Assembly (NCBI GenBank): GCA_965217775.1
Contig: CBDCJH010000002.1
Location: 2,208,001 to 2,272,000, forward strand
DNA length: 64,000 nucleotides
From: Acidobacteriota bacterium
Lineage (GTDB): Bacteria; Acidobacteriota; UBA6911; RPQK01; JAJDTT01
Direction: 5' to 3'
The notes below the pieces were generated by a model. It was not told the origin of the DNA. It was given only the letters and a program-made list of their open reading frames with translations, and searched no databases. This document shows positions 24,340-41,302 of the stretch, one piece after another. The first letter of the stretch is position 1. Every line of letters starts with the position of its first letter. The position numbers and the translations under genes were made by a program.

Positions 24340-24501
24340 CAGTCCGTGGTGAAAGTCCCGCGAGCACCGAGACCGTTCCTGCGCCCGCCGGACAAGGCGC
24401 GATTCGGGTGCATACCGGGAGTATGTGCCCGAATCGCAACGCCGTCCGCCGGGATGCAGGGACGGTCGAATGCCGTGATGACTTTTGCCACGGGCTGCTA
24501 G
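24336..24501. mobile_element. MITE family A, copy 2
   Basis: CTAG-flanked; highly similar to 13267-13433. Confidence 0.85.
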
Positions 24502-24664
24502 GAGTCTGCGCGGTAGAAATGATCGTAGCGAGAAAGTGGGGAATCGAGGCCGGATTTTCTCGATTTGGAGGTGCATAGTTGTTCTATTCGCCGAGAAATC
24601 GGGGAAATCTGGACCGATTCTACCGCTTTCGCAGTAGATCAATTTCTGCGGCGCAGGCTCCTAG
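24498..24664. mobile_element. MITE family B, copy 1
   Basis: CTAG|GAGTCTGCGCGGTAGAAAT ... ATTTCTGCGGCGCAGGCTC|CTAG; inverted homolog at 41136-41302. Confidence 0.85.
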
Positions 24665-26088
24665 TACGCCGGGACCGAAGGATCCACGTCCCGGGCCCAG
24701 GCCAGGATTCCGCCCTCCAGGTTCCGGACCTTCCTGAAACCGGCCTGACGCAGCAACTGAACGGCCTGCGCGCTCCGGGCGCCTGATCGGCACTGGGCCA
24801 CGATCTCGCGGGAGGTGTCCAGCTCGTTGAGACGGTTGAGCAGATCGCCCAAGGGGATCAGGTGGGCCCCGTCGATTCGGCAGATCTCGTATTCGGGCGG
24901 GTTGCGCACGTCCAGAATGAAGACATCTTCGCCCCGGTCCAATTCCTGCTTCAACTCCACCGCCGTCACTTCCTCCACCGATGTGGCCGACTCGGGCTCG
25001 ATGCCGCAGAACTGTTCGTAGTCGATGAGCTCGTGCAAGGTGGGTTCGTCCCCGCAGACGGGGCATTCCGGATCTCTTCGCAGCTTCAACTCCCTGAACT
25101 TCATGCCCAAGGCATCGAACAGGAGCAGGCGGCCCACCAGGGGATCGCCCTGCTCCAGGATCAGCTTCACCACTTCGGTCGCCTGAATGATCCCCACCAG
25201 TCCCGGAAGAATCCCCAGGACTCCCCCCTCGGCGCAGGAGGGCACCAAGCCCGGAGGTGGCGGCTCCGGGTAGAGGCAGCGATAGCAGGGTCCGTCCGGG
25301 AGCGCGAAGACCGAGGCCTGACCCTCGAACCGGAAGATGCTGGCGTAGACGTTCGGTTTGCCGCTCAGCACACAGGCGTCGTTGACCAGATATCGGGTAG
25401 GAAAGTTGTCGGTTCCGTCGGCCACGATGTCGTAGTACCGGAACAGGTCGAGCGCGTTCCCGGAGCTGAGGCGTAGCTGGTGGGTCTCCACCTGGACGTT
25501 GGGGTTGATCTGAGACAAGGTCTCCCGCGCCGACTCCAGCTTGGGCCGTCCCACATCGCCGGTCCCATGGAGAATCTGCCGCTGCAGATTGCTCTCGTCC
25601 ACCACGTCGAAATCGACGAGACCGAGGCGACCCACACCCGCCGCCGCGAGGTACATGGCCAAGGGTGACCCCAGACCTCCTGCGCCGATGCACAGGACGC
25701 TGGCCTGCTTCAGCTTCCGCTGTCCCTCCAGGCCCACCTCGGGCATGATCAAGTGGCGACTGTACCGCCGGATCTCCTCGTGGGTGAGAAGGCCGGGCGG
25801 GGCAGCCGCCACGCTGCCACCGGCGATGGAGGGAACGATGCTGACCGTATCGCCGTCGCTGACGGCCGTGTCTTCCCTCTGCAGGTATCGAATGTCCTCG
25901 TCGTTCAGGTATACGTTGACGAAGTTCCTCAGACGGCCCTGAGGGGTGTAGAGGTGCTTGCGGAGCGTCCCGTGTTGCTCGGTCAGGCTCTGCAGAACCT
26001 CCCGTATGGTGGCTCCCTCCAACTCCAATGACTCCCGGTTGCCCACATGGGGCCTCAGGGGAGTGGGAATGAACACCTTGACAGCCAT
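24661..26088 (-). CDS. moeB: MoaD/CysO-like ubiquitin-like domain fused to MoeB/ThiF adenylyltransferase and rhodanese (MoeZ-like)
   Basis: N-terminal Ubl ending SIAGG; RYSRH, GAGGLG, SNLQRQ, CYRC and CPVC; rhodanese CRSGARS. Confidence 0.9.
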   Translation of the reverse strand: MAVKVFIPTPLRPHVGNRESLELEGATIREVLQSLTEQHGTLRKHLYTPQGRLRNFVNVYLNDEDIRYLQREDTAVSDGDTVSIVPSIAGGSVAAAPPGLLTHEEIRRYSRHLIMPEVGLEGQRKLKQASVLCIGAGGLGSPLAMYLAAAGVGRLGLVDFDVVDESNLQRQILHGTGDVGRPKLESARETLSQINPNVQVETHQLRLSSGNALDLFRYYDIVADGTDNFPTRYLVNDACVLSGKPNVYASIFRFEGQASVFALPDGPCYRCLYPEPPPPGLVPSCAEGGVLGILPGLVGIIQATEVVKLILEQGDPLVGRLLLFDALGMKFRELKLRRDPECPVCGDEPTLHELIDYEQFCGIEPESATSVEEVTAVELKQELDRGEDVFILDVRNPPEYEICRIDGAHLIPLGDLLNRLNELDTSREIVAQCRSGARSAQAVQLLRQAGFRKVRNLEGGILAWARDVDPSVPAY

Positions 26089-26119: not shown

Positions 26120-26551
26120 TCAATCTCCCCGGGGTTCCAATTTCCATGCTTCCGGCTCGAAGCCGGAACGGTCTTCCATCAAGAGCCAGGACAATATTTC
26201 CGCCGTCCTACCCTGGCGCACCGACGCGATCAGGTACGAATACCAGGGCCACGCATGGTCCCGATCATATTCGGACGGGCGGGCCGGGACGTCGGGGTGA
26301 CTGTGAAAATAACCCAGTATCTGCGACTTGCCTCCCCGGAGCCGTTTCTCCCACTCCAGCAGAAACTCGGGCGCGATCAGGTAGCGATTGGCGGCACTGT
26401 CGCTCCTCTGGTTCCGCGCCTCCACCACCTGGGAAACCCGCTTGAACCCGTTGCCCGCCGAGCCGACCAGGAGTCCGCAGCACTCGTGCGGATAGGTCTT
26501 CTCGGCAATAGCCTTGATGCGCTCCAGATCCTCCGGTTTCAAAAAGAGCAT
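26120..26551 (-). CDS. JAB/MPN (M67, Mec-like) metallopeptidase
   Basis: YPHECCG and HSHP....PS..D motifs. Confidence 0.9.
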   Translation of the reverse strand: MLFLKPEDLERIKAIAEKTYPHECCGLLVGSAGNGFKRVSQVVEARNQRSDSAANRYLIAPEFLLEWEKRLRGGKSQILGYFHSHPDVPARPSEYDRDHAWPWYSYLIASVRQGRTAEILSWLLMEDRSGFEPEAWKLEPRGD

Positions 26552-27474
26552 CAATCACTCTCCCAGAACGCCTCTGAGAGGTATTTGTCTCCCGAATCCG
26601 GGAATATGGCTACGATGACGCCGTGATCCAGGTTCCGGGCGACCTCGAGCGCCGCCGCCATGGCCGCGCCCGCGGAGATCCCCGCGAAGATACCCTCCTC
26701 CCGGGCCAACCTCAGGACCATCTGCTGCCCCGCTTCGGTGGATATCTCCATATTCAAGTCGGCCAGATTCGGATCGTAGATGGAGGGAACCAGCGCCGTC
26801 GGCATGTGCTTGAGACCCTCCAGGCCATGGAAGGGAGAATCGGGCATGAAGGAGATGGCCTGAATCCGCGGATTCAGCTCCTGGAGACGGCGGGTCGATC
26901 CAACGAAGGTTCCACTCGTTCCCAGACCCGCCACGAAGTGGGTGATCCCGCCGTTCGACTGCCGGTAGATCTCTATTGCCGTCGTCTCGTAGTGGGCCCT
27001 CCAGTTGGCGTCATTGCTGTACTGGTCCGGGTAGAAATACTTTTCCGGCGACTCCTGGTAGAGGCGGCGGATCTCCCGGATCGCTCCGTCGGAACCCTCC
27101 AGCGGATCGGTCAGGCGAATCTTGGCCCCATAGGCCCGCAAAATCTTCTTCCGTTCGATGCTGGCGTTGGCGGGCATGGCCAACAGGACGTCGTAACTCC
27201 GGGTGGCTGCGATCATGGCGTAGGCGATCCCGGTGTTGCCGCTGGTGGAATCGATGAGCGTGCGCCCCGGCCGCAGCAACCCCTGCTCCTCCGCCGTCCG
27301 GATCATGTTGTAGGCGGCCCGGTCCTTGACCGATCCGCCCGGGTTGAATCCCTCCAGCTTCGCCAGGATGCGGACCCGGCCGGGCGGCAGAATCCGCCGG
27401 ATCTCCACCAGCGGCGTGTTGCCGATCCGACTCAGCAGACTCTCTTTCGGCTCGACTGCCAGCTCGACCGCCAT
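26551..27474 (-). CDS. cysM: PLP-dependent cysteine synthase (CysM type)
   Basis: IGNTPL, NPGGSVKDR, TSGNTG, GTSGT and DSGDKYLS motifs. Confidence 0.88.
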   Translation of the reverse strand: MAVELAVEPKESLLSRIGNTPLVEIRRILPPGRVRILAKLEGFNPGGSVKDRAAYNMIRTAEEQGLLRPGRTLIDSTSGNTGIAYAMIAATRSYDVLLAMPANASIERKKILRAYGAKIRLTDPLEGSDGAIREIRRLYQESPEKYFYPDQYSNDANWRAHYETTAIEIYRQSNGGITHFVAGLGTSGTFVGSTRRLQELNPRIQAISFMPDSPFHGLEGLKHMPTALVPSIYDPNLADLNMEISTEAGQQMVLRLAREEGIFAGISAGAAMAAALEVARNLDHGVIVAIFPDSGDKYLSEAFWESD

Positions 27475-29677: not shown

Positions 29678-30340
29678 CTAAAAGCCGACGGGACGGGCCG
29701 CACCCGTCAGGAACGGGTTGTAGAGTCGCTCCTCACCCACCGTGGTCACGGGTCCGTGGCCCGGATACAGGATAGTGTCGTCTCCCAGGGGAAGGATCCG
29801 GTTTCGAATGGTCTCGATCAGGACGTCGTAGGACGACGAGGGCAGATCGGTCCGGCCGATGGATCCCTGAAACACCGTGTCCCCGCAGAACAGGTGATTC
29901 TCCACTTCCAGCGAGACGCTGCCGGGGGAGTGACCGGGCGTGTGATGCACGCGGATTTGCAGGCAGTCCAAGCTCAAGGTTTGTCCGTCCTCCAGCACAT
30001 CGGTCGGCGGCGGCGCAGGGTCGCAAGTGAGCCCGAACCAATAGCCCCATTCGGGCAGAGCGTCGTAGATGGGTCGATCCTCAGGGTGCAGGTAGATGGG
30101 GGTTCCCCACTCTTCCACCACTTGTCCGACTCCCGTGATGTGATCCACGTGGGCATGGGTCAGCACCACGGCGATCAAGTTGAGGCGGCGCTCCCGAATC
30201 CGGGCCAGAAGGCGCGAAGCCTCGTCCCCGGGGTCGATGTAGACGGCGTTTCCGGTGGCCGGGCAGGACAGGATATAGCCGTTCTTGAAGAACGGACCCA
30301 CTGCGTCCGACTCGATCTCGAAGGAACTCACAACGCGCAT
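29678..30340 (-). CDS. MBL-fold metallo-hydrolase (glyoxalase II/YcbL-like)
   Basis: THAHVDH, TPGHSPG, GDT..SIGRTD and PGHG motifs. Confidence 0.9.
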   Translation of the reverse strand: MRVVSSFEIESDAVGPFFKNGYILSCPATGNAVYIDPGDEASRLLARIRERRLNLIAVVLTHAHVDHITGVGQVVEEWGTPIYLHPEDRPIYDALPEWGYWFGLTCDPAPPPTDVLEDGQTLSLDCLQIRVHHTPGHSPGSVSLEVENHLFCGDTVFQGSIGRTDLPSSSYDVLIETIRNRILPLGDDTILYPGHGPVTTVGEERLYNPFLTGAARPVGF

Positions 30341-30528
30341 ATTCTCAGGCTCGAGGACCCGCAGGTCAACCGTCTTCGGATTGCCGACCTTGATTCCAGC
30401 AACGTGATATCCAATATGACCAGATGGTCGCCGGCGAGGCCCCCCGCGATGTCGAGAACCGCAGCCGTTCCCTCCTCCTCGATGTAGAGCTTGATCAGCG
30501 CGCTGGTGTCGAAACAGTAGCTTGCCAT
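30328..30528 (-). pseudogene. Truncated VapC/PIN toxin
   Basis: MASYCFDTSALIKLY..E.G start; only 66 aa, about half a PIN domain. Confidence 0.7.
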
Positions 30529-30537
30529 CGGCGCGCC

Positions 30538-30945
30538 TCAGTTCCGATCGTCCAGGACCGTATTCGAAATCGAGCCGCCACGAATTCGCACCGGGTTGAA
30601 GCGGGACGTCCGAGCAGTCGCATCCGTCCGAAGCCGCGGGTGACTTCGATTCAGTCGGATCGCCGTCGTCGGGTGCAACGGCGAGTTCGGATCGGAACCC
30701 CCGCCAGTTTCGCCGGAGGCGGTTCCAGCGGGTTCGGGCCGAATTCCATGATCCTGAGGCTCTTCCACGGGATCGAAATTTATCATGACTTCGCAGTTGC
30801 CTCCATCGAAGTAGCTTGCCGAAGCCGTTTCTCGAACCTTCCGCCTCTTCCTTCCGCTCTCGGACGTGTAGTAGACGGTCACCTTCGGCTTGTAGCCGAA
30901 CATAGGCAGATGACGAAGCCCTTCCAGCTTGGAGGGCAGCACCAA
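30538..30945 (-). CDS. Hypothetical or chimeric ORF with an antitoxin-like C-terminus
   Basis: Ends PVRIRGGSISNTVLDDRN directly upstream of the vapC fragment; N-terminus unassigned. Confidence 0.35.
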   Translation of the reverse strand: MVLPSKLEGLRHLPMFGYKPKVTVYYTSESGRKRRKVRETASASYFDGGNCEVMINFDPVEEPQDHGIRPEPAGTASGETGGGSDPNSPLHPTTAIRLNRSHPRLRTDATARTSRFNPVRIRGGSISNTVLDDRN

Positions 30946-31056
30946 GTCAGGTAGATTTGAATAAGGACTGTCCCCATTTTTCTGCCATAAGGACTTTCCC
31001 CATTGTTCTGGGAGTTCGGGAGAACAGGGGAAGCAGGTTTGAACCAGGATCGCGAC

Positions 31057-31188
31057 GTAGGGGCACCCCTTGTGGGTGCCCGCTGTCGCCGCTTACTGTC
31101 CGGCGCAGGGAGGGCAACCACAAGGGTTGCCCCTACGTGCCCGGGGAGGGCGACCACACGGGAGGGCGACCACAAGGGTCGACCCTAC
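31057..31188. repeat. GTAG-type REP cluster (REPIN-like)
   Basis: GTAGGGGCACCCCTTGTGGGTGCCC with inverted GGGCAACCACAAGGGTTGCCCCTAC and GGGCGACCACAAGGGTCGACCCTAC. Confidence 0.8.
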
Positions 31189-31225
31189 GTACGATGCGAA
31201 AATTGTCAGGCCCGCAGGGCCGCAG

Positions 31226-31543
31226 TTAACTTGCCCGCCGCCGGATCGCATCCAGCTTGTAGCCTCTCCCACGCAGGGTCCGGATCCGTTTTCCCGCCTT
31301 CCCCAGCTTCTTCCGGAGCCGTCCCACGTGAGTATCCACTGTCCGCTCGCCGCCCTGGTAGTGCTCTCCCCAGGCCGCGTCCAGTAGTTGACGGCGGCTC
31401 AGAGTCCGTCCCGCGTTGCGCAACAGGCAAACCAGAAGATTGTATTCGGTGAGAGTCAGGCGGAGCACGCGTCGTCCGGCCCGCGCCGTAAACTGCTCCA
31501 GATCCACGGAAATGCCCCCAGCACGGATGATGTCAGGAGACAT
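31226..31543 (-). CDS. Stand-alone OmpR/PhoB winged-helix DNA-binding protein
   Basis: LTLTEYNLL, SRRQLL..AWG, RTVDTHVGRLRKKL and IRTLRGRGY; no receiver domain. Confidence 0.8.
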   Translation of the reverse strand: MSPDIIRAGGISVDLEQFTARAGRRVLRLTLTEYNLLVCLLRNAGRTLSRRQLLDAAWGEHYQGGERTVDTHVGRLRKKLGKAGKRIRTLRGRGYKLDAIRRRAS

Positions 31544-31739
31544 GGTAGTCCGTGCCGAAGGTCCGGCATGCCAGCCGGACGAACGATGCGCTGGCCCTTG
31601 CGAAGGAGGAGCACTCTCGTGCCCTCCCGTCGCCATCCGACAGAATGTGAACGAAGAATAAAGCCCCGGGGCGCGATTCAGCGCCCTTCGAACCTCGCGA
31701 AATCTCTTGTCCCGGGACCATGTTTCCCGTCGTGCGGTT

Positions 31740-34265
31740 TCAGGACCGGACCAGGACGAGGTCTTGGCCCCGGCTGGAGGCGTACTCGGAATTCGGGCGG
31801 GTGATGCGAGCCAGAGTCTTGGCCAGGGGATACGAACTCTCCACCTTGGAAGCCCCGACCCCCACCGGGATGAAGTTGCCGCCGTGAGCATCCCAGATGG
31901 CCTTGTTCACCCGATAGGCGCGCTCTTGAGCCGCTGCGAAAGAGGCGTCCGCAAACACGTCGCGGAACTCGGTCATGCGACCCGATTCATCCAATTGGAT
32001 CCAGGCGGATACGGCGACTCCCCGGCTGGAGATGGTGGCGATGGCGTCCCGGAAAGAGAGCGGCGTCGGAAACATGTAGTGGGACCCCCGCCCGTCCCCC
32101 TGAGTCATGTAGAAATGGTCCCGCATGAAGAGATTGAGCCCCTCGGCCAGCGGCTCCACCGACAGCAGCACGGGATCATCCTTGCCCAGATACTCCCCCC
32201 CCGAAATGACAGCCAGCTTTTCGGTGGAAGCCGACAGCAGGACCTCGTCCAGACATTGGCGAGGCCGCGACGGATCGAATTCCCCGTTCCGACTCCACAC
32301 CCGTTTGACGTTGAACTTCTCGACGGCCCCCAGCAGCGTCTGGCAATGCCCCGACTCGGTTTCCAGGTCCAGGAAGATCCGGCGATGGTGCTCCACGTCC
32401 CAGACCTCCAGAACGGCCCCCACGCCACCGATGGAGTCGAGGTGCCGTTGCAGTGAACCGCTGGTCCGGGCGTGATTCAGGCTCCACCAGACGGGCAGGT
32501 TGAAGGCCGAGGGTCCGGCCTTGTCGATGGACAGAAGACCGACCCGCTGCGTGCGGTTGAGGGGGAGCTCGGCGAAGCCGGGTCCCTGCCCCGATACGTT
32601 GCCGGAAAAGACGGGTTCGGGCTCGCCGGCCTCGACCAACCCGGCCTTCCAGTCCCGGTAGGATTTCTCGAGGACCCCAATCCGGGACCGCTCGACCTCG
32701 GGCAGGTGATCGGCCAACAATTCCAGAAACCGATCGGTGAGGTGAGCCAGCTCCTCCGTGGCACGGCCGGCAGAGGCGTCGCCCACCAGATCCTGGCCCA
32801 GACCGTACCACTTGTAGCCCAGCGTGCTGGCGACCCAGACCTGGCGAAAGAAGGTTCGATAGGCAAAGAGGTGGACCGCATTGTCGTCGGCGCCGCGGAA
32901 ATGGGTCATGAGGAGGTGCTCGTCATCTCCCACTTCGATGATCTCGGAGGTCGAGGAGATGAGACCCAGCTCCGTCGCTTCCTGGAGACTCGCCTTGGCG
33001 ACGAACCGGAAATGGTTCGGCGGCGTCGTGTGTCCCACCTTGCCTCCACCGTCGGCCTTGATGTCCGAGATGGTGAAACGCGCCCGCTGGTTGGCGCCCG
33101 CAATCAGGGAATCCTGGTCGGGTATATCTTCTAGTCGACCTGCGAGTCGACCGGCCAGTACCGCGGCCCTGGATTCCGACGCTTGGGGATTCAGATAGGG
33201 CTCGAACTCGCCGTGTCCGGCCATCTGCCGGATCAGTTCGGCGGCGTCCCGTTGCAGACAGCGGGTCTCGGGACGATTCTGGTCGAAAATATCCACGACG
33301 TCGGTGTCCGAGGGGATGCGGCCTCGATCGAAAGACTGGTAGGCGTAGGCCACGATCCGGGCGGCTCCCTCGCCGGAACGGAGGGGACGGCTTCCGGGAA
33401 AGTCCACCGGTACCAGCCCGACCCGGTACTCTCCGGCACGCCCTCCCGGTCCGAAATGAAACTCTCCGGCGGCCTGGGTGAATTCGCCGATGGCGGGAAG
33501 CCCCGACTGGGAGCGTCCGATCAGGATGGGATTGAAGTTTCCTCCCACCAGAGCGGCCGGCTCATCCCGCAGATCGCCCTCGGCGAACCTGCCCCGAACC
33601 GCGTAGACCTGACTCAGACGCCACTGCTCAGCATCGGCGATGAGAGCCACCAGCTCGTTCAGTTGGCCCGGTCCGAACTCGTAGGTCCGGACCCGATCCC
33701 GGCCTGCGGCCAGATCTTCGATCGATTCGACCACGCCGAGGTAGTCGTTGGCCTCGATCCTCCGTCCGGAGCCCTTATCCGGGTTGAAGAAAAGATTGAA
33801 GAGAGACCGGTTGAAGAAACCCCACGCGCCGTCCAGGGCTTTGGCCACGAAGATGGGTTCGGCCCCTCGCTCGGTATAGGGAAAGTTCAGGAGGCGGACA
33901 CCCAGAGCCTCCCGCTGCGCGTCCCCGGAAAGTGAGAAGACTTCCTCGGCCTCGGGTCCGGTCAGACCGGCCGCCAGCGCCTGTTCCAGGGCTTTGAGTC
34001 CACCCTGCAGTCCAATCCCGGCCGAAACCTCTACCGCAGCCTCATTGGAAAAGTCTCCATTGAGGCTGGAGAAATGGATGTGAACGTCCCCGCCGAAGCC
34101 TCGGACCCAGGACCCGCGAAGACCGGATCGGAGGACCGAGGCGGCCACTTCATCTCTGACGGCCTGCACGATGGCGGCCGGAGTCTCCGCCGCGGTCCAG
34201 CGGCCCAGATCTACGGAAACGATGGTGACATTGGATTGTTCGGAGACGGAATTCCCCGTTTTCAT
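31740..34265 (-). CDS. Tandem two-domain fructose-1,6-bisphosphate aldolase/phosphatase (FBPase class V) homolog
   Basis: C-half: IKADGGG..GH, VGDD.HL.MTH, YGLGQDL, FSGNV.GQGPG.AE, DK, YLGKDDP, RGSH. N-half: ERGAEP, RSQSGLPAIGE, HGEFEP. Confidence 0.82.
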   Translation of the reverse strand: MKTGNSVSEQSNVTIVSVDLGRWTAAETPAAIVQAVRDEVAASVLRSGLRGSWVRGFGGDVHIHFSSLNGDFSNEAAVEVSAGIGLQGGLKALEQALAAGLTGPEAEEVFSLSGDAQREALGVRLLNFPYTERGAEPIFVAKALDGAWGFFNRSLFNLFFNPDKGSGRRIEANDYLGVVESIEDLAAGRDRVRTYEFGPGQLNELVALIADAEQWRLSQVYAVRGRFAEGDLRDEPAALVGGNFNPILIGRSQSGLPAIGEFTQAAGEFHFGPGGRAGEYRVGLVPVDFPGSRPLRSGEGAARIVAYAYQSFDRGRIPSDTDVVDIFDQNRPETRCLQRDAAELIRQMAGHGEFEPYLNPQASESRAAVLAGRLAGRLEDIPDQDSLIAGANQRARFTISDIKADGGGKVGHTTPPNHFRFVAKASLQEATELGLISSTSEIIEVGDDEHLLMTHFRGADDNAVHLFAYRTFFRQVWVASTLGYKWYGLGQDLVGDASAGRATEELAHLTDRFLELLADHLPEVERSRIGVLEKSYRDWKAGLVEAGEPEPVFSGNVSGQGPGFAELPLNRTQRVGLLSIDKAGPSAFNLPVWWSLNHARTSGSLQRHLDSIGGVGAVLEVWDVEHHRRIFLDLETESGHCQTLLGAVEKFNVKRVWSRNGEFDPSRPRQCLDEVLLSASTEKLAVISGGEYLGKDDPVLLSVEPLAEGLNLFMRDHFYMTQGDGRGSHYMFPTPLSFRDAIATISSRGVAVSAWIQLDESGRMTEFRDVFADASFAAAQERAYRVNKAIWDAHGGNFIPVGVGASKVESSYPLAKTLARITRPNSEYASSRGQDLVLVRS

Positions 34266-34286
34266 TTTGCTTATGACTCCCAGGCA

Positions 34287-34358
34287 CCAGGAGCCTGCGC
34301 GGCAGAAATTGATCTACTGCTTTCTCGCTACGATCATTTCTACAGCGCAGACTCCTGG
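34287..34358. mobile_element. MITE family B, internally deleted copy
   Basis: Both MITE-B ends joined: GAGCCTGCGCGGCAGAAATTGATCTACTGC|TTTCTCGCTACGATCATTTCTACAGCGCAGACTC. Confidence 0.8.
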
Positions 34359-34684
34359 AAAAAACGATTCAACCGTACCGGCGACGGAATCTTCAGGACC
34401 GGTATCACAGCCGTCGATCAACCAACTCTCACTCGGACGGCGTTATTGTACCTTTCTCCCCCGAAAAAAACGTCGTCCGCCGATGCTCACAGCCCCACAT
34501 CGCCGACTCCCGAAGACGGGACCGGAACAGAGTCTCGGTGAGTCTGCGGATCATCAGGTCCGATGATGCGGTCTGGTACCGGAGATTGGCGATAGTTGAA
34601 CTCTCGCAGACGCTCGCCAACAAGGAGCGATAGGGGACAGTGGAACGTCGCCACCCGTCAGGAGGCGGGGACATTGCAAGGCGG

Positions 34685-36208
34685 TTATGCTCTCGACCGG
34701 CGAAGTTCCCGGATGCCCTCGGAAAGAATGCGCAGGAAGCTGGATCGGTTCTGCCAGAGCAACAGGATCCAATGCCGCTTCTTCATCTGGGGAAAGTAGA
34801 TGCCCCGGAACGCCAGCCGCGTGAAGAACATCAAGGTTCGTTCGTGGAAGGGACGCCCCTCGATTTTCTTCAATGCCTGGGCCGTGGTCTGGGGTGAATA
34901 AGACCGTCTCCAGGCTTCGTGCACTTCGGCTTCGGCCGCCTTGACGCTGATGTTGTTGGGAGTGAAGGCCATGCGGAAAGGCCTGAAATCGAGCCAGTGT
35001 TTGGGACGGGTCAGCCGCTTCTGCGCCAACAGACGATCATACAACGGGGTTGCGGGATACGGCGTCAGCAAGCCGAACACGGGCAGCCCCGGAGGCCAGC
35101 TGTCGATGATGTCCAGGGTCTTCCGGGCCACTCCCGGACGATCACCGTCCATCCCGAAGATGAAGGAGGTGATGGAGTAAATTCCGCGTCTGGCGAGGCG
35201 ATCCAGGACCTCCGCGTATTGCGCCGGTTTGTTGAAGCCCTTGTTCACTCCCTTGAGGTTCTCGTCGTCAATCGACTCGAGACCCATGAAAATCCAGCGA
35301 CCGCCACTCTCCTTGATCAGGTCCACCAGTTCTTCGTCCTTCAGCAGGTTCACGCTGATCTGAGCTACCCAGGGAATTATGGCATCCTGCGCAATGATTT
35401 CCCGAAGCAGCGATTTGGTCCGCCGCTTGTTGAGGGCGAAGTTGTCGTCGATGAAGAAAACGCCGACTCTACTGTCCTCCTTTCGGGCCCGGGCCTTGAG
35501 CCGCAGCATCTCGTCAACGACGCTCTGATCGCTTCGGAAGCGAATGGAGTCGCCGAAGAACCCGGTGACGGTGCAGAAATCGCATCCGTACGGACAGCCC
35601 CGGCCGGACTCGATGGGTACGACGTAAAGGCCCTTCCAAGTGTTTCCCGCTTTCCTCAGCAGGTAGCGGCCCCAGTTGGGGATCTTGGACATGAGGTCGA
35701 ACTGGCTCAAGTCCAGATCTTCCCATGGAATGTGGGGGTAGTCGTCCAGAGAGGGCTTGACCTCATGACCCGTTTCATCGACTGGCTTGTAGACTTCTTG
35801 GAGCTGACCCGCCTCCGCGTCGGCCACGATCTTGGGCCAGACGTCATCCGCTTCCCCCAGCGCCACGGCGTCGGCGTGGCGAGGTTCGCCGCTCCTTCCG
35901 ATCGGCTCGTCGGGAACCTCGGTCACGTGGGGTCCCCCCATCACGACCTTGGCGCCCGCCGACCGAATGGCGTCGGCCATCTGGTACGCGCGCGCCGCCA
36001 TCCGGGTCATGGCCCCGATGCCGGCCAACTGGATATCGTTCTCCTTGACGAATTCCATGATGTCCGCCCGCGTCATGGGCTGGGCGTTCCCGTCGATCAG
36101 GAACACCTTGTGCCCCGGAGGCGTCACCGCCTGCAGCACAAACATCCACAGATGCGGCATGTAGTTTTTCGTCACCTGGTTGTCGGGGTTGTACAGCAAA
36201 ATGTTCAT
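34685..36208 (-). CDS. B12-binding-domain radical SAM protein
   Basis: VMGGPH, RGCPYGCDFC, FIDDN, GLES and TPYPATPL motifs. Confidence 0.9.
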   Translation of the reverse strand: MNILLYNPDNQVTKNYMPHLWMFVLQAVTPPGHKVFLIDGNAQPMTRADIMEFVKENDIQLAGIGAMTRMAARAYQMADAIRSAGAKVVMGGPHVTEVPDEPIGRSGEPRHADAVALGEADDVWPKIVADAEAGQLQEVYKPVDETGHEVKPSLDDYPHIPWEDLDLSQFDLMSKIPNWGRYLLRKAGNTWKGLYVVPIESGRGCPYGCDFCTVTGFFGDSIRFRSDQSVVDEMLRLKARARKEDSRVGVFFIDDNFALNKRRTKSLLREIIAQDAIIPWVAQISVNLLKDEELVDLIKESGGRWIFMGLESIDDENLKGVNKGFNKPAQYAEVLDRLARRGIYSITSFIFGMDGDRPGVARKTLDIIDSWPPGLPVFGLLTPYPATPLYDRLLAQKRLTRPKHWLDFRPFRMAFTPNNISVKAAEAEVHEAWRRSYSPQTTAQALKKIEGRPFHERTLMFFTRLAFRGIYFPQMKKRHWILLLWQNRSSFLRILSEGIRELRRSRA

Positions 36209-40100: not shown

Positions 40101-41180
40101 ATGGTCGTAAGGAATAGCCGGATTCGCGGGTTTGCGAGCGATACGAATGCGGGCATCTGCCCCGAAGCCTGGGAGGCGTTGGATCGCGCCAATCGGGGAC
40201 ACGCTCCCGCCTATGGCTTCGACTCCCATACCCAGGAGGCGCGCGCCGCCATTCAGGACCTTTTCGCCACCGATTGCCAAGTCTACTTCGTCTTCACCGG
40301 TTCGGCTGCCAACTCGCTGGCGGTGGCTCATCTCTGCCGCAGCTATGAGCTGGCCATCTGTCACGAGACTGCTCATCTGGACCTGGGGGAATGCGGCGGT
40401 CCGGAGTTCTTCAGCGGCGGCTCCAAGGTGCTGCCCCTGCCGGGAGAGCACGGAAAACTGGACGCCGCCGGCATCCGGTACGCGGTCGAGACTCGAACCC
40501 GCGACTTCCAATACCCAGCCCCCCGGCTCGTCAGCCTGACCCAGGCCACGGAGACGGGAACCGTCTACAGCCTGGAACGGCTCCGGGAAATCTCCAACCT
40601 GAGCCGCGAATTGGGACTCCGGGTCCACATGGACGGGGCCCGTCTGGCAAATGCCCTGATCCACCTGGACTGCGAGCCGGCCGACACGACCTGGAGAGCG
40701 GGTGTCGACGTCCTCTCCTTCGGCTGCACCAAGAATGGACTCCACCAGGGGGAGGCTGTCGTGTTCTTCGATCGGGAGTTGGCCTCGGGCTTCGAGTACC
40801 GTTGGAAGCAATCGGGCCAGGTCGCTTCCAAGATGCGTTTCCTGTCGGCGCCCTGGACGGCCCTTCTCAAGAGCGGCGCCTGGCTCCGCAATGCCCGGCA
40901 CGCCAATGCCTGCGCCGCCCGTCTGGAGCGGGGTTTGAGACGGTTGGAGGGCATCTGCATCCCCTACCCGCGGGAGGCCAACGGCGTGTTCGTCCGGCTC
41001 AAGCCCGCCCTGGCAGCAGCCCTGAGGCAACGGGGCTGGACCGTGGGAATCATGCCCGGCGGCGCCGCCCGCTTCATGTGCAGTTGGGACACCCGGGACG
41101 AGGACGTCGACGCATTGGTCCACGATTTCCGGGAACTGGGAGCCTGCGCGGCAGAAATTGATCTACTGCGAAAGCGGTAG
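40101..41180 (+). CDS. Low-specificity threonine aldolase family protein
   Basis: FASDT, TGSAAN, HMDGAR, SFGCTKNG and SKMRF motifs; C-terminus supplied by MITE-B. Confidence 0.88.
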   Translation: MVVRNSRIRGFASDTNAGICPEAWEALDRANRGHAPAYGFDSHTQEARAAIQDLFATDCQVYFVFTGSAANSLAVAHLCRSYELAICHETAHLDLGECGGPEFFSGGSKVLPLPGEHGKLDAAGIRYAVETRTRDFQYPAPRLVSLTQATETGTVYSLERLREISNLSRELGLRVHMDGARLANALIHLDCEPADTTWRAGVDVLSFGCTKNGLHQGEAVVFFDRELASGFEYRWKQSGQVASKMRFLSAPWTALLKSGAWLRNARHANACAARLERGLRRLEGICIPYPREANGVFVRLKPALAAALRQRGWTVGIMPGGAARFMCSWDTRDEDVDALVHDFRELGACAAEIDLLRKR

Positions 41181-41302
41181 AATCGGTCCATATTTCCCCG
41201 ATTTTTCGGCGAATAGAATGACTATGCACCTCAAAATCGAGAAAATCTGGTCTCGATTCCCCGCTTTCTCGCTACGATCATTCCTACCGCGCAGACTCCT
41301 GG
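41136..41302. mobile_element. MITE family B, copy 2
   Basis: CTGG direct repeats at 41136 and 41299 flanking the TIRs; reverse orientation relative to the 24498 copy. Confidence 0.85.

What the first reader, a model, noticed from the sequence alone, without database searches (positions are those of the whole stretch)
31740..34265. Tandem-duplicated FBP aldolase/phosphatase with complementary (split) active-site motifs
Seen: the 841-aa ORF holds two copies of the normally ~370-aa FBPA/P (FBPase class V) fold. The C-half (aa ~396-830) keeps the metal and catalytic motifs: KADG..GH, GDD, YG.GQD, SGNV, DK, the Schiff-base loop YLGKDDP, and RGSH. It has lost the RAQSG.PA.GE segment. The N-half has lost the metal ligands and the whole GKDDP loop but keeps ERGAEP, RSQSGLPAIGE and HGEFEP. 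Known: in the canonical homo-octamer the Gln of that QSG segment (~Q242) is donated to the neighbouring subunit's active site. Inference: this is a subfunctionalised single-chain pseudo-dimer, where the dead half supplies the trans residues and may act as a regulatory or altered-specificity site. I do not know of a description of this architecture.
Basis: partly seen in the sequence, partly recalled or inferred. Interest (0 to 1): 0.85.

Follow-up and report, generated by a model that had tools for sequence, protein, structure and literature searches.

The report
Tandem FBP aldolase/phosphatase, one live half
This gene encodes a doubled version of an ancient sugar-building enzyme in which only the second copy keeps the catalytic residues while the first keeps only a small set of residues that the second has lost; the design is widespread in bacteria but I found no published description of it.

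Summary
Window 31740-34265 (-) is an intact 841-aa gene with two full FBPase_3 (class V FBP aldolase/phosphatase) folds. The C-domain (aa 396-841) keeps the Schiff-base Lys, Tyr, metal ligands and RGSH, and carries a ~55-aa insert. The N-domain (aa 9-384) has lost all of these. It keeps R133/E136, R251 and Q253, which are near-invariant in single-domain enzymes; the C-domain has lost E125, R240 and Q242. This split holds in 170 of 170 two-copy proteins examined. N- and C-domains each form one clade, so there was one old duplication and fusion. Both halves are under purifying selection (dN/dS 0.12-0.16 and 0.06-0.09). A complex model places the N-domain conserved segments against the C-domain active-site loops. 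The three runs did not share one interface, and similar solved complexes exist. The gene occurs in Acidobacteriota, Poribacteria, Planctomycetota, Latescibacterota, Chloroflexota and Nitrospinota. It was the only FBPase found in 6 of 6 genomes checked. Best reading: a single-chain pseudo-heterodimer with one composite active site, acting as the gluconeogenic FBP aldolase/phosphatase. Trans-donation and any regulatory role remain inferred. Nine literature searches found no description. This is a new variant of a known kind.

The parts
31740..34265 (-). Whole CDS, 841 aa plus stop: tandem FBPase_3 protein
   Evidence: 7 orthologues at 92-95% identity have the same start and length
33114..34241 (-). 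N-domain (aa 9-384): FBPA/P fold without catalytic residues
   Evidence: VIA Z 30.2-31.5 to 3r1m/1umg/3t2b-g; hhalign E 2.6e-41; catalytic columns lost
33855..33872 (-). ERGAEP (aa 132-137), aligned to R122/E125 of single-domain enzymes; kept in the N-domain
   Evidence: R 169/170 and E/D 170/170 in N-domains; residues 134-135 and 137-138 lie in the predicted interface
33747..33815 (-). N-domain loop FNRSLFNLFFNPDKGSGRRIEAN (aa 151-173), mostly invariant in the family and different from single-domain enzymes
   Evidence: 16 of its 23 positions are invariant columns in A1; aa 165-169 have pLDDT <50; 162-164 and 169-172 lie in the predicted interface
33483..33515 (-). RSQSGLPAIGE (aa 251-261), aligned to R240/Q242/P246/E250; kept only in the N-domain
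   Evidence: residues 252-253 and 258-260 lie in the predicted interface
33081..33113 (-). Linker (aa 385-395) between the two folds
   Evidence: lies between the aligned ranges; RNA-library contigs bridge it
31743..33080 (-). C-domain (aa 396-841): catalytic FBPA/P copy
   Evidence: Pfam E 4.3e-53; hhalign E 3.1e-67; 37 of 47 near-invariant columns of single-domain enzymes kept
33030..33059 (-). KADGGGKVGH (aa 403-412), aligned to K11/D13/H20
   Evidence: K/D/H kept in 168/170 C-domains
32610..32768 (-). Helical insert of about 53 aa (aa 500-552), just before the SGNV lid-loop segment of the C-domain
   Evidence: gap in the hhalign alignment; helices 503-540; median 55 extra residues in 151 C-domains; dN/dS 0.09-0.19
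32172..32192 (-). YLGKDDP (aa 692-698): Schiff-base loop with Y692, K695, D696, D697
   Evidence: aligned to Y229/K232/D233/D234 of 3t2b; invariant in A1; aa 683-694 have pLDDT <50
32133..32162 (-). SVEPLAEGLN (aa 702-711): degenerate counterpart of the R.Q..P..GE segment
   Evidence: Q242 in 5/170 and R240 in 3/170 C-domains
32079..32090 (-). RGSH (aa 726-729)
31824..31868 (-). C-terminal loop (aa 800-814) with invariant Y812, the probable counterpart of catalytic Tyr347/348
   Evidence: Y812 invariant; aa 800-802 have pLDDT <50; 812-814 lie in the predicted interface; role of Tyr347 from passages of PMC8740755. hhalign placed the Tyr two columns off, so the equivalence is inferred

Best explanation
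The gene encodes a single-chain pseudo-heterodimer of two FBP aldolase/phosphatase (class V FBPase) folds, the product of one old duplication and fusion. The C-domain carries the whole catalytic apparatus: Schiff-base Lys695, Tyr692, Asp696/697, the Asp/His/Gln metal ligands, Asp581/Lys582, RGSH and the C-terminal-loop Tyr812. The N-domain is catalytically dead. It keeps the residues that single-domain enzymes conserve and the C-domain has lost (R251 and Q253 of RSQSGLPAIGE, and E136). It also has an invariant loop of its own (aa 151-173). These pack against the C-domain active-site loops, so each chain has one composite active site (inferred from conservation and a model). The protein most likely assembles further, for example four chains forming a pseudo-octamer (inferred, not tested). 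In this organism it converts DHAP plus GAP to F6P plus phosphate as the only gluconeogenic FBP aldolase/phosphatase. That role is inferred from the retained catalytic residues and from the absence of the other enzyme families searched for.
For: - Two folds.
- Residue split in this protein: of 47 columns at least 95% conserved in 21 single-domain enzymes, 25 are kept only in the C-half, 12 in both, 6 only in the N-half (R122, E125, P151, R240, P246, E250) and 4 in neither.
- Residue split across the family: in 170 two-copy proteins, N-domains have Q242 in 170/170, R240 in 167/170, R122 in 169/170, D233+D234 in 0/170 and D133+K134 in 0/170. C-domains have Y229 in 170/170, D133+K134 in 169/170, K11/D13/H20 in 168/170, Q242 in 5/170 and R240 in 3/170. 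The C copy was defined by having K232 and D233.
- Domain order is dead then catalytic in 169 of 170; one protein reads C-n-C.
- Single origin: the 18 N-domains and the 18 C-domains each form a clade with support 1.0, and I judged their branching orders similar by eye.
- Purifying selection: dN/dS is 0.117-0.158 for the N-half and 0.057-0.085 for the C-half against 7 orthologues.
- Structure: the AF2 model has pTM 0.87. Its low-pLDDT segments in the C-half fall on the SGNV (554-561), Schiff-base (683-694) and C-terminal (800-802) loops.
- Complex model of C-half plus N-half: score 0.67, best of 3 controls 0.00. That mark was reached by 58 of 80 solved complexes and 2 of 110 mismatched pairs. 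The runs agree in at least 0% of contacts, and the partner pLDDT is at least 87. A like complex (the FBPA/P homo-octamer) is solved, so the pass may reflect likeness. In the best run, N 134-138, 162-164, 169-172 and 252-253 touch C 408-417, 483-487 and 812-817.
- Physiological role: the own genome (97.9% complete) has one FBPase_3 locus and no class I, II or III FBPase, class II FBA or PFK. Its single DeoC-family hit is an LsrF-type thiolase. Five further genomes with the fused gene (labelled Poribacteria, Gemmataceae, Latescibacterota and two Acidobacteriota) also have it as their only FBPase_3 locus, with no class I or II FBPase.
- Longer relatives are fused to TIM (P0233) or to transaldolase, phosphoglucomutase and an NDP-sugar transferase (P0232).
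- RNA-library contigs from 4 runs of one study cover both halves and bridge the junction.
Against: - No activity, oligomer or structure was measured.
- I had no model coordinates, so no distance from Q253 to the C-domain active site was measured.
- The three complex runs did not share one interface (agreement at least 0%). Only the best run's contacts were shown, and the pass may come from likeness to solved homo-octamers.
- That Q242 acts in trans in the single-domain enzyme is recalled; the papers were not held.
- R122 is not cleanly complementary, since 60/170 C-domains have Arg there.
- The protein scores 228.7 bits against the NCBIfam FBP_aldo_phos equivalog, far below its 520-bit cut-off.
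- IMPase-type (class IV) FBPases were not searched for. The class I FBA search (PF00274) was uninformative because its control rang nowhere.
- RNA libraries can contain DNA, so transcription is not shown.
Confidence: 0.65

Rival explanations
1. The N-domain is mainly a scaffold or an allosteric module. It keeps the oligomer interface, so the R.QSG.P..GE segment is conserved for packing, or it binds an effector in its remodelled pocket or through the invariant NPDKGSG.RIEGN loop. It would then contribute nothing to catalysis in the C-domain site.
For: - 19 of 46 columns in aa 130-175 are invariant, and this motif differs from the one in single-domain enzymes.
- The loop at 165-169 is predicted to be flexible.
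- Interface residues can be conserved for packing alone.
- Tandem duplicates with one regulatory half are known in hexokinase I and eukaryotic PFK (recalled).
Against: - The residues kept in the N-domain are among those near-invariant in single-domain enzymes, and they are lost from the C-domain. Packing alone does not predict this, because the reciprocal contact has been allowed to decay.
- The best-run interface places them next to C-domain active-site loops.
- No effector-binding family was detected in the N-half; only PF01950 matched.
Confidence: 0.2
2. The fused enzyme has a different job from FBP aldolase/phosphatase. It might act on another sugar bisphosphate such as SBP, carry out only one of the two reactions, or act as a protein phosphatase as the homologue CinF does.
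For: - The score is far below the NCBIfam equivalog cut-off.
- There is a 55-aa insert just before the SGNV lid-loop segment, and the trans face is altered.
- CinF shows that this fold can change substrate (passages of PMC8740755).
Against: - Every catalytic column tested is kept in the C-domain.
- No other FBPase was found in 6 of 6 genomes, and no class II FBA or PFK in the own genome.
- Longer relatives are fused to TIM, transaldolase and PGM.
Confidence: 0.1
3. The long ORF is an artefact: two adjacent genes joined by an assembly or frameshift error, or a decaying pseudogene.
For: None found. Some shorter database entries exist.
Against: - There are 197 clusters, the 120 listed being 805-875 aa.
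- The frame is intact in named chromosomes of several phyla.
- dN/dS is well below 1 in both halves.
- The three short N-half entries I read (P0132, P0133, P0137) end in out-of-frame tails, which suggests broken copies of the fused gene. Most other short entries are singletons on short contigs.
Confidence: 0.01

Closest known systems
Single-domain class V FBPase / bifunctional FBP aldolase/phosphatase (Sulfurisphaera tokodaii ST0318: PDB 1UMG, 3R1M; Thermoproteus neutrophilus: PDB 3T2B-3T2G)
   Same: Both halves share its fold. The C-domain keeps its Schiff-base Lys and Tyr, its metal ligands, RGSH and the C-terminal Tyr. The low-pLDDT segments of the C-domain fall on the SGNV, Schiff-base and C-terminal loops, which I recall as the three mobile loops of this enzyme.
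   Different: The known enzyme is one domain of about 360-400 aa, with every subunit identical and active; that it forms a homo-octamer is recalled. This protein is 841 aa with two unlike domains and one catalytic set per chain. It has a 55-aa insert before the SGNV loop and scores below the NCBIfam equivalog cut-off (228.7 against 520 bits). It occurs in genomes labelled Acidobacteriota, Poribacteria, Gemmataceae, Latescibacterota, Anaerolineae, Dehalococcoidia and Nitrospinota.
CinF (Cbu0513) of Coxiella burnetii, an FBPA/P homologue that acts as a protein phosphatase
   Same: It is a divergent member of the same fold family with a changed role (passages of PMC8740755).
   Different: CinF is a single domain of 382 aa that has lost FBP phosphatase activity. 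Here the C-domain keeps all catalytic columns tested, and the change is in architecture. No CinF sequence was fetched or compared.
Tandem-duplicated enzymes with one non-catalytic half: mammalian hexokinase I, eukaryotic phosphofructokinase, monomeric herpesvirus dUTPase (all recalled, not tested here)
   Same: Each arose by duplication and fusion of an oligomeric enzyme, after which one copy lost catalysis. In the herpesvirus dUTPase the active-site motifs are divided between the two copies, much as here.
   Different: These are unrelated folds and reactions. For FBPA/P I found no description of such a form in nine literature searches.

Membership tests
Pfam PF01950 FBPase_3 (class V FBPase fold) | Match above the gathering score (25 bits) | tested here: met
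   233.4 bits for the whole protein; 57.5 bits for the N-half alone and 181.2 bits for the C-half alone
NCBIfam NF041126 FBP_aldo_phos (equivalog) | Whole-protein score at or above the curated cut-off of 520 bits | tested here: not met
   228.7 bits. By NCBI's threshold the protein is a relative, not an equivalog.
Bifunctional FBP aldolase/phosphatase | Schiff-base Lys232 with Tyr229 and Asp233/Asp234 in a Y.GKDDP loop | tested here: met
   The C-domain has Y692, K695, D696 and D697, aligned to 3t2b residues 229-234 and invariant in A1. The N-domain has V240, N243, F244 and N245 instead.
Bifunctional FBP aldolase/phosphatase | Conserved acidic, His and Gln columns (K11/D13/H20, D54/D55, Q96/D97, D133/K134, RGSH). 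Their naming as metal or phosphate ligands is recalled. | tested here: met
   All are present in the C-domain and almost all are absent from the N-domain.
Bifunctional FBP aldolase/phosphatase | Each subunit carries both the catalytic set and the R240/Q242/P246/E250 segment | tested here: not met
   The two sets lie in different domains. The C-domain has V703 at R240, a gap or Pro at Q242 and no P246; the N-domain keeps all four.
Bifunctional FBP aldolase/phosphatase | Single-domain subunit of about 360-400 aa forming a homo-octamer (oligomer state recalled) | tested here: not met
   The chain is 841 aa with two domains. Its oligomer state cannot be tested with these tools.
Bifunctional FBP aldolase/phosphatase | Catalyses DHAP + GAP to FBP to F6P + phosphate | not testable with these tools
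   Only indirect evidence: it is the sole FBPase found in 6 of 6 genomes, and longer relatives are fused to TIM, TAL and PGM.

The most novel reading that the evidence does not exclude
This is a distinct class of FBP aldolase/phosphatase that spans several phyla. An obligate asymmetric single-chain pseudo-heterodimer has replaced the symmetric sharing of active-site residues between identical subunits. Beyond supplying the old trans residues, the N-domain has evolved its own invariant flexible loop (FNPDKGSG.RIEGN, with K164 and R169). That loop reaches the composite site or an effector site and gives the enzyme new regulation or a wider substrate range. The same module is built into proteins of more than 1000 aa together with TIM, transaldolase and phosphoglucomutase.
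Probability: 0.3. Interest if true: 0.75.

Novelty: new variant of a known kind. Interest (0 to 1): 0.6.

Why it matters
- FBPA/P is discussed as an ancestral, heat-adapted gluconeogenic enzyme of archaea and deeply branching bacteria (the Say and Fuchs view, as summarised in passages of PMC12965863). Here a doubled, asymmetric form is apparently the only route from triose phosphates to hexose phosphate in bacteria of at least six phylum-level groups, including lineages whose sequence turned up in runs labelled sponge metagenome.
- The protein is a natural experiment on which residues act across subunits. Evolution has sorted the conserved residues into a catalytic set (C-domain) and a second set (N-domain), so single mutations and domain deletions would test the shared-site model directly.
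- It is a clean example of duplication, fusion and reciprocal loss within one active site.
- Current annotation calls these proteins simply "fructose 1,6-bisphosphatase". That hides both the architecture and the halved number of active sites per unit mass.

Tried and rejected
- Direct BLASTP of the N-half against the C-half gave nothing significant (E 0.58). The duplication shows only through profiles and structure.
- I looked for free-standing halves. The N-half search gave 29 hits and the C-half search gave 82. These were fragments on short contigs, pieces with out-of-frame tails (P0132, P0133, P0137, read), truncated calls of a second fused clade (P0174, P0180, P0144), or ordinary single-domain enzymes at about 30% identity. 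I found no evidence of a naturally split form.
- I looked for a conserved gene neighbourhood and found none. Window neighbours are a ThiS-ThiF-rhodanese fusion, a PALP enzyme, a futalosine-pathway enzyme, HAD and MBL hydrolases, a Trans_reg_C protein, a B12 radical-SAM enzyme and aminotransferases. The flanks in five other loci are unrelated to these and to each other.
- Rfam (E<=0.1) and tRNA scans of 30000-35000 found nothing. The promoter scan found 0 sites and the terminator scan 2, against 3.2 expected.
- The PF00274 (class I FBA) search is uninformative because its control rang in none of 14 genomes.
- The literature searches gave no paper describing a two-domain FBPA/P. The phrase "aldolase/phosphatase" cannot be searched because of the slash, most subscription papers are not held, and supplements are closed. 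A description could therefore exist that I could not see.
- The 2011 Nature structure paper (by DOI) and a review (by a recalled PMC id) are not held. The roles of Q242, R240 and R122 in the single-domain octamer, its oligomer state and the names of its three mobile loops are recalled.
- The ESM Atlas call gave only FBPase_3 clusters, the best a 900-aa cluster of 502 members.
- The three complex-prediction runs agree in at least 0% of contacts, so at least two interfaces were modelled. I could not tell which is within a chain and which between chains.
- In read laying some bins had no cover (33950-34043 in all four runs, 33856-33949 in three). I draw nothing from that.
Full report
**What is there.** Window 31740-34265 on the minus strand is one uninterrupted 841-aa reading frame. 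Seven orthologues at 92-95% identity, in genome records labelled Acidobacteriota or Aminicenantes, have the same start and the same length. Pfam finds only FBPase_3 (PF01950), in three stretches. Scanned alone, the N-half (aa 1-395) matches profile positions 23-338 at E 1.7e-15. The C-half (aa 396-841) matches at E 4.3e-53, in two pieces separated by an insert. Direct BLASTP between the halves is not significant. Profile-profile comparison with 21 single-domain enzymes aligns each half end to end: N-half E 2.6e-41 over 351 columns at 22% identity, and C-half E 3.1e-67 over 357 columns at 32% identity. An AlphaFold2 model built on 102 family members has mean pLDDT 85.6 and pTM 0.87. Foldseek finds the seven FBPA/P entries at E 7.7e-18 to 7.2e-16 and nothing else below 6e-4. 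VIA-align superposes residues 9-384 on them with Z 30.2-31.5, rmsd 2.3-3.2 A over 324-339 residues.

**How the conserved residues are divided.** I took 21 single-domain FBPA/Ps (median pairwise identity 41%) and listed the 47 columns where at least 95% share one residue. I then asked which half keeps each column in at least 90% of 102 fused homologues.
- 25 columns are kept only by the C-half. They include K11, D54, H62, G95/Q96/D97, D133/K134, Y229, K232, D233, D234 and S268.
- 12 columns are kept by both halves.
- 6 columns are kept only by the N-half: R122, E125, P151, R240, P246 and E250.
- 4 columns are kept by neither.

Q242 is Gln in 17 of the 21 single-domain sequences. I then aligned every domain copy in all fetched proteins to this profile. 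There were 170 proteins with two good copies, ranging from 737 to 4971 aa and down to about 30% identity with the query. I defined the catalytic copy as the one having K232 and D233. The order is dead copy then catalytic copy in 169 of 170; one 3495-aa protein reads C-n-C.

| Column(s) | N-domains | C-domains |
|---|---|---|
| Q242 | 170/170 | 5/170 |
| R240 | 167/170 | 3/170 |
| R122 | 169/170 | 60/170 |
| E/D125 | 170/170 | not counted |
| D233+D234 | 0/170 | D234 170/170 |
| D133+K134 | 0/170 | 169/170 |
| K232 | 8/170 | by definition |
| Y229 | 3/170 | 170/170 |
| K11/D13/H20 | H20 3/170 | 168/170 |
| D54+D55 | not counted | 167/170 |
| Q96+D97 | Q96 16/170 | 163/170 |
| S268+H269 | not counted | 165/170 |

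One point goes against a perfectly clean split: 60 of 170 C-domains have Arg at the column aligned to R122.

**History.** In a maximum-likelihood tree of 18 N-domains, 18 C-domains and 24 single-domain enzymes, the N-domains form one clade and the C-domains another, each with support 1.0. By eye, their internal branching orders mirror each other. This fits a single duplication and fusion, followed by loss of different residues in each copy, before the family spread. The rooting is uncertain: the C clade sits inside the single-domain diversity and the N clade sits on a long branch. I found no free-standing N-like or C-like gene family. The shorter database entries are fragments, frameshifted pieces or truncated calls.

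**Is the dead half functional?** Against seven orthologues, dN/dS is 0.117-0.158 for the N-half and 0.057-0.085 for the C-half. In the 102-sequence alignment, 70 of 395 N-half columns are invariant, against 136 of 446 in the C-half. The invariant N-half columns are concentrated in aa 130-175 (19 of 46) and aa 240-290 (19 of 51). The first block holds ERGAEP and an invariant loop, FNR.LFNL.FNPDKGSG.RIE.N, which differs from the consensus of single-domain enzymes. The second block holds R.QSGLPA.GE. The N-half is under selection, but not for catalysis of the usual kind.

**Where the N-half residues sit.** I had no coordinates. The only spatial evidence is a complex prediction with the C-half and the N-half as separate chains. 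Its score is 0.67 and the best of 3 controls is 0.00. That mark was reached by 58 of 80 solved complexes and 2 of 110 mismatched pairs. The runs agree in at least 0% of their contacts, and the partner's pLDDT is at least 87. A like complex, the FBPA/P homo-octamer, has been solved, so the pass may show likeness and not binding. In the best run the N-half interface includes 134-135 and 137-138 (ERGAEP), 162-164 and 169-172 (the invariant loop), 252-253 (S252, Q253) and 258-268. The C-half interface includes 408-417 (the KADGGGKVGH loop), 483-487 (just before GQD), 795-797 and 812-817 (the loop carrying Y812). The lowest-error pairs join helix 777-785 of the C-half to 329-337 of the N-half. These are equivalent helices in the two folds, so the arrangement looks like a pseudo-twofold dimer. 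The zero agreement between runs suggests that more than one N-C interface was modelled, as would be expected if chains assemble further. All of this fits trans-completion but does not prove it.

**The C-half as the working enzyme.** The low-confidence segments of the model in the C-half are 554-561 (SGNVSGQG), 683-694 (leading into YLGKDDP) and 800-802 (before Y812). These correspond to the lid, Schiff-base and C-terminal loops that, as I recall, move between the aldolase and phosphatase states in the solved enzymes. Tyr347 of ST0318 is needed for FBP phosphatase activity (passages of PMC8740755). Y812 is invariant here, but the profile alignment placed it two columns off, so the equivalence is inferred. 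An insert of about 55 aa lies just before the SGNV loop. It is helical (aa 503-540), is present in 151 C-domains with a median of 55 extra residues, and has dN/dS of 0.09-0.19.

**Physiological role.** The window's genome (6.43 Mb, 2 contigs, 97.9% complete, 7.5% contamination) has one FBPase_3 locus, which is this gene. It has no class I FBPase, no GlpX, no class III FBPase, no class II FBA and no PFK. Its one DeoC-family hit scores as an LsrF-type thiolase (478.6 bits, cut-off 297) and not as an archaeal class I FBA (114 bits, cut-off 430). Five other genomes with the fused gene, labelled Poribacteria, Gemmataceae, Latescibacterota and two Acidobacteriota, likewise have it as their only FBPase_3 locus and have no class I or II FBPase. 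IMPase-type FBPases were not searched for, and the class I FBA search had a silent control. Longer relatives join the same two-domain module to triosephosphate isomerase (P0233, 1797 aa) or to an NDP-sugar transferase, a transaldolase and a phosphoglucomutase (P0232, 3555 aa). Whether those are true fusions or merged gene calls, they tie the module to triose-to-hexose metabolism. Contigs from four RNA libraries of one study, labelled sponge metagenome, lie on both halves. Two of them bridge the domain junction at 33080 with more than 31 bases on each side. RNA libraries can contain DNA, so this is only a hint of expression.

**Spread.**
- The near-length search found 197 clusters at 90% identity with E<=1e-3. 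The 120 listed are 805-875 aa at 58-93% identity, and those with names are called fructose 1,6-bisphosphatase or FBP aldolase/phosphatase.
- The exhaustive search of 50%-identity representatives found 254 proteins at E<=1e-3 and 66 at E<=1e-30.
- In species-representative genomes, two family-specific peptide patterns found 39 loci. By record label, 25 are Acidobacteriota or Acidobacteria, 1 Aminicenantes, 4 Poribacteria, 3 Gemmataceae, 2 Latescibacterota, 1 Nitrospinota, 1 Anaerolineae, 1 Dehalococcoidia and 1 unclassified.
- A second clade at about 50% identity carries labels such as Binatia, Methylomirabilales and bacterium HR30.
- The gene has no conserved neighbours.

**Verdict.** The protein belongs to the FBPase_3 fold family, but it fails two features of the described enzyme: one domain per subunit carrying both residue sets, and the NCBIfam equivalog score. 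I file it as a new variant of a known kind. The steps shown are the two folds, the complementary residue split, a single origin, purifying selection on both halves, the wide spread, and its being the only FBPase found. The steps inferred are trans-completion of the C-domain site, the oligomer state, the enzymatic activity, and any regulatory role. Nine literature searches found no description, within the limits stated under Tried and rejected.

Noticed in passing
window 34287-34358 (upstream of the FBPA/P start codon); other copies at about 24500-24665 and 41139-41302: A segment of about 70 nt, 22-93 nt upstream of the start codon, belongs to a dispersed repeat. A 91-nt query over it gave 74 matches in the own genome. 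Most are two ~35-nt ends lying about 95-130 nt apart; here the two ends abut. The segment is missing at this place in 6 close relatives. It explains the 10-30 times higher depth of RNA-library contigs at 34232-34400. It looks like a MITE-type element, and it could affect expression of the gene.
   Followed up: partly
proteins P0233, P0232, P0222, P0226: 33 of the 170 two-copy proteins are longer than 1000 aa. P0233 adds a TIM domain. P0232 adds NTP_transferase, transaldolase and phosphoglucomutase domains. P0222 (3495 aa) holds two tandem units. P0226 begins with what looks to me like a signal peptide. It is not known whether these are true giant fusions, merged gene calls or eukaryotic genes.
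   Followed up: partly
protein P0211 (638 aa): A single-domain FBPA/P (595 bits to PF01950) is fused to a SorC-type putative sugar-binding domain (PF04198). This is a different fusion from the one studied here and may be regulatory.
   Followed up: no
window 31226-31891 (-): An ORF just downstream of the FBPA/P gene carries only an OmpR-type Trans_reg_C DNA-binding domain (aa 142-213), and no receiver domain was detected. The listed ORF overlaps the 3' end of the FBPA/P gene, so its true start is probably further in.
   Followed up: no
window 24661-26088 (-) and 26551-27474 (-): One 475-aa ORF combines ThiS, ThiF and rhodanese domains, and a PALP enzyme lies beside it. This looks like a fused sulfur-carrier and activating-enzyme system.
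   Followed up: no
own genome G000 (whole); L043 = G000:C2:1775700-1777500: No PFK, class II FBA, or class I, II or III FBPase was found in a genome that is 97.9% complete, so classical EMP glycolysis seems to be absent. The only DeoC-family gene is an LsrF-type thiolase.
   Followed up: partly
window 31600-34400; runs X1-X21: Near-identical sequence occurs in 20 public runs from 9 studies. They include four RNA libraries labelled sponge metagenome, and four of the related loci are labelled Poribacteria, a lineage I recall as sponge-associated. Only the four RNA runs were laid on the window.
   Followed up: partly
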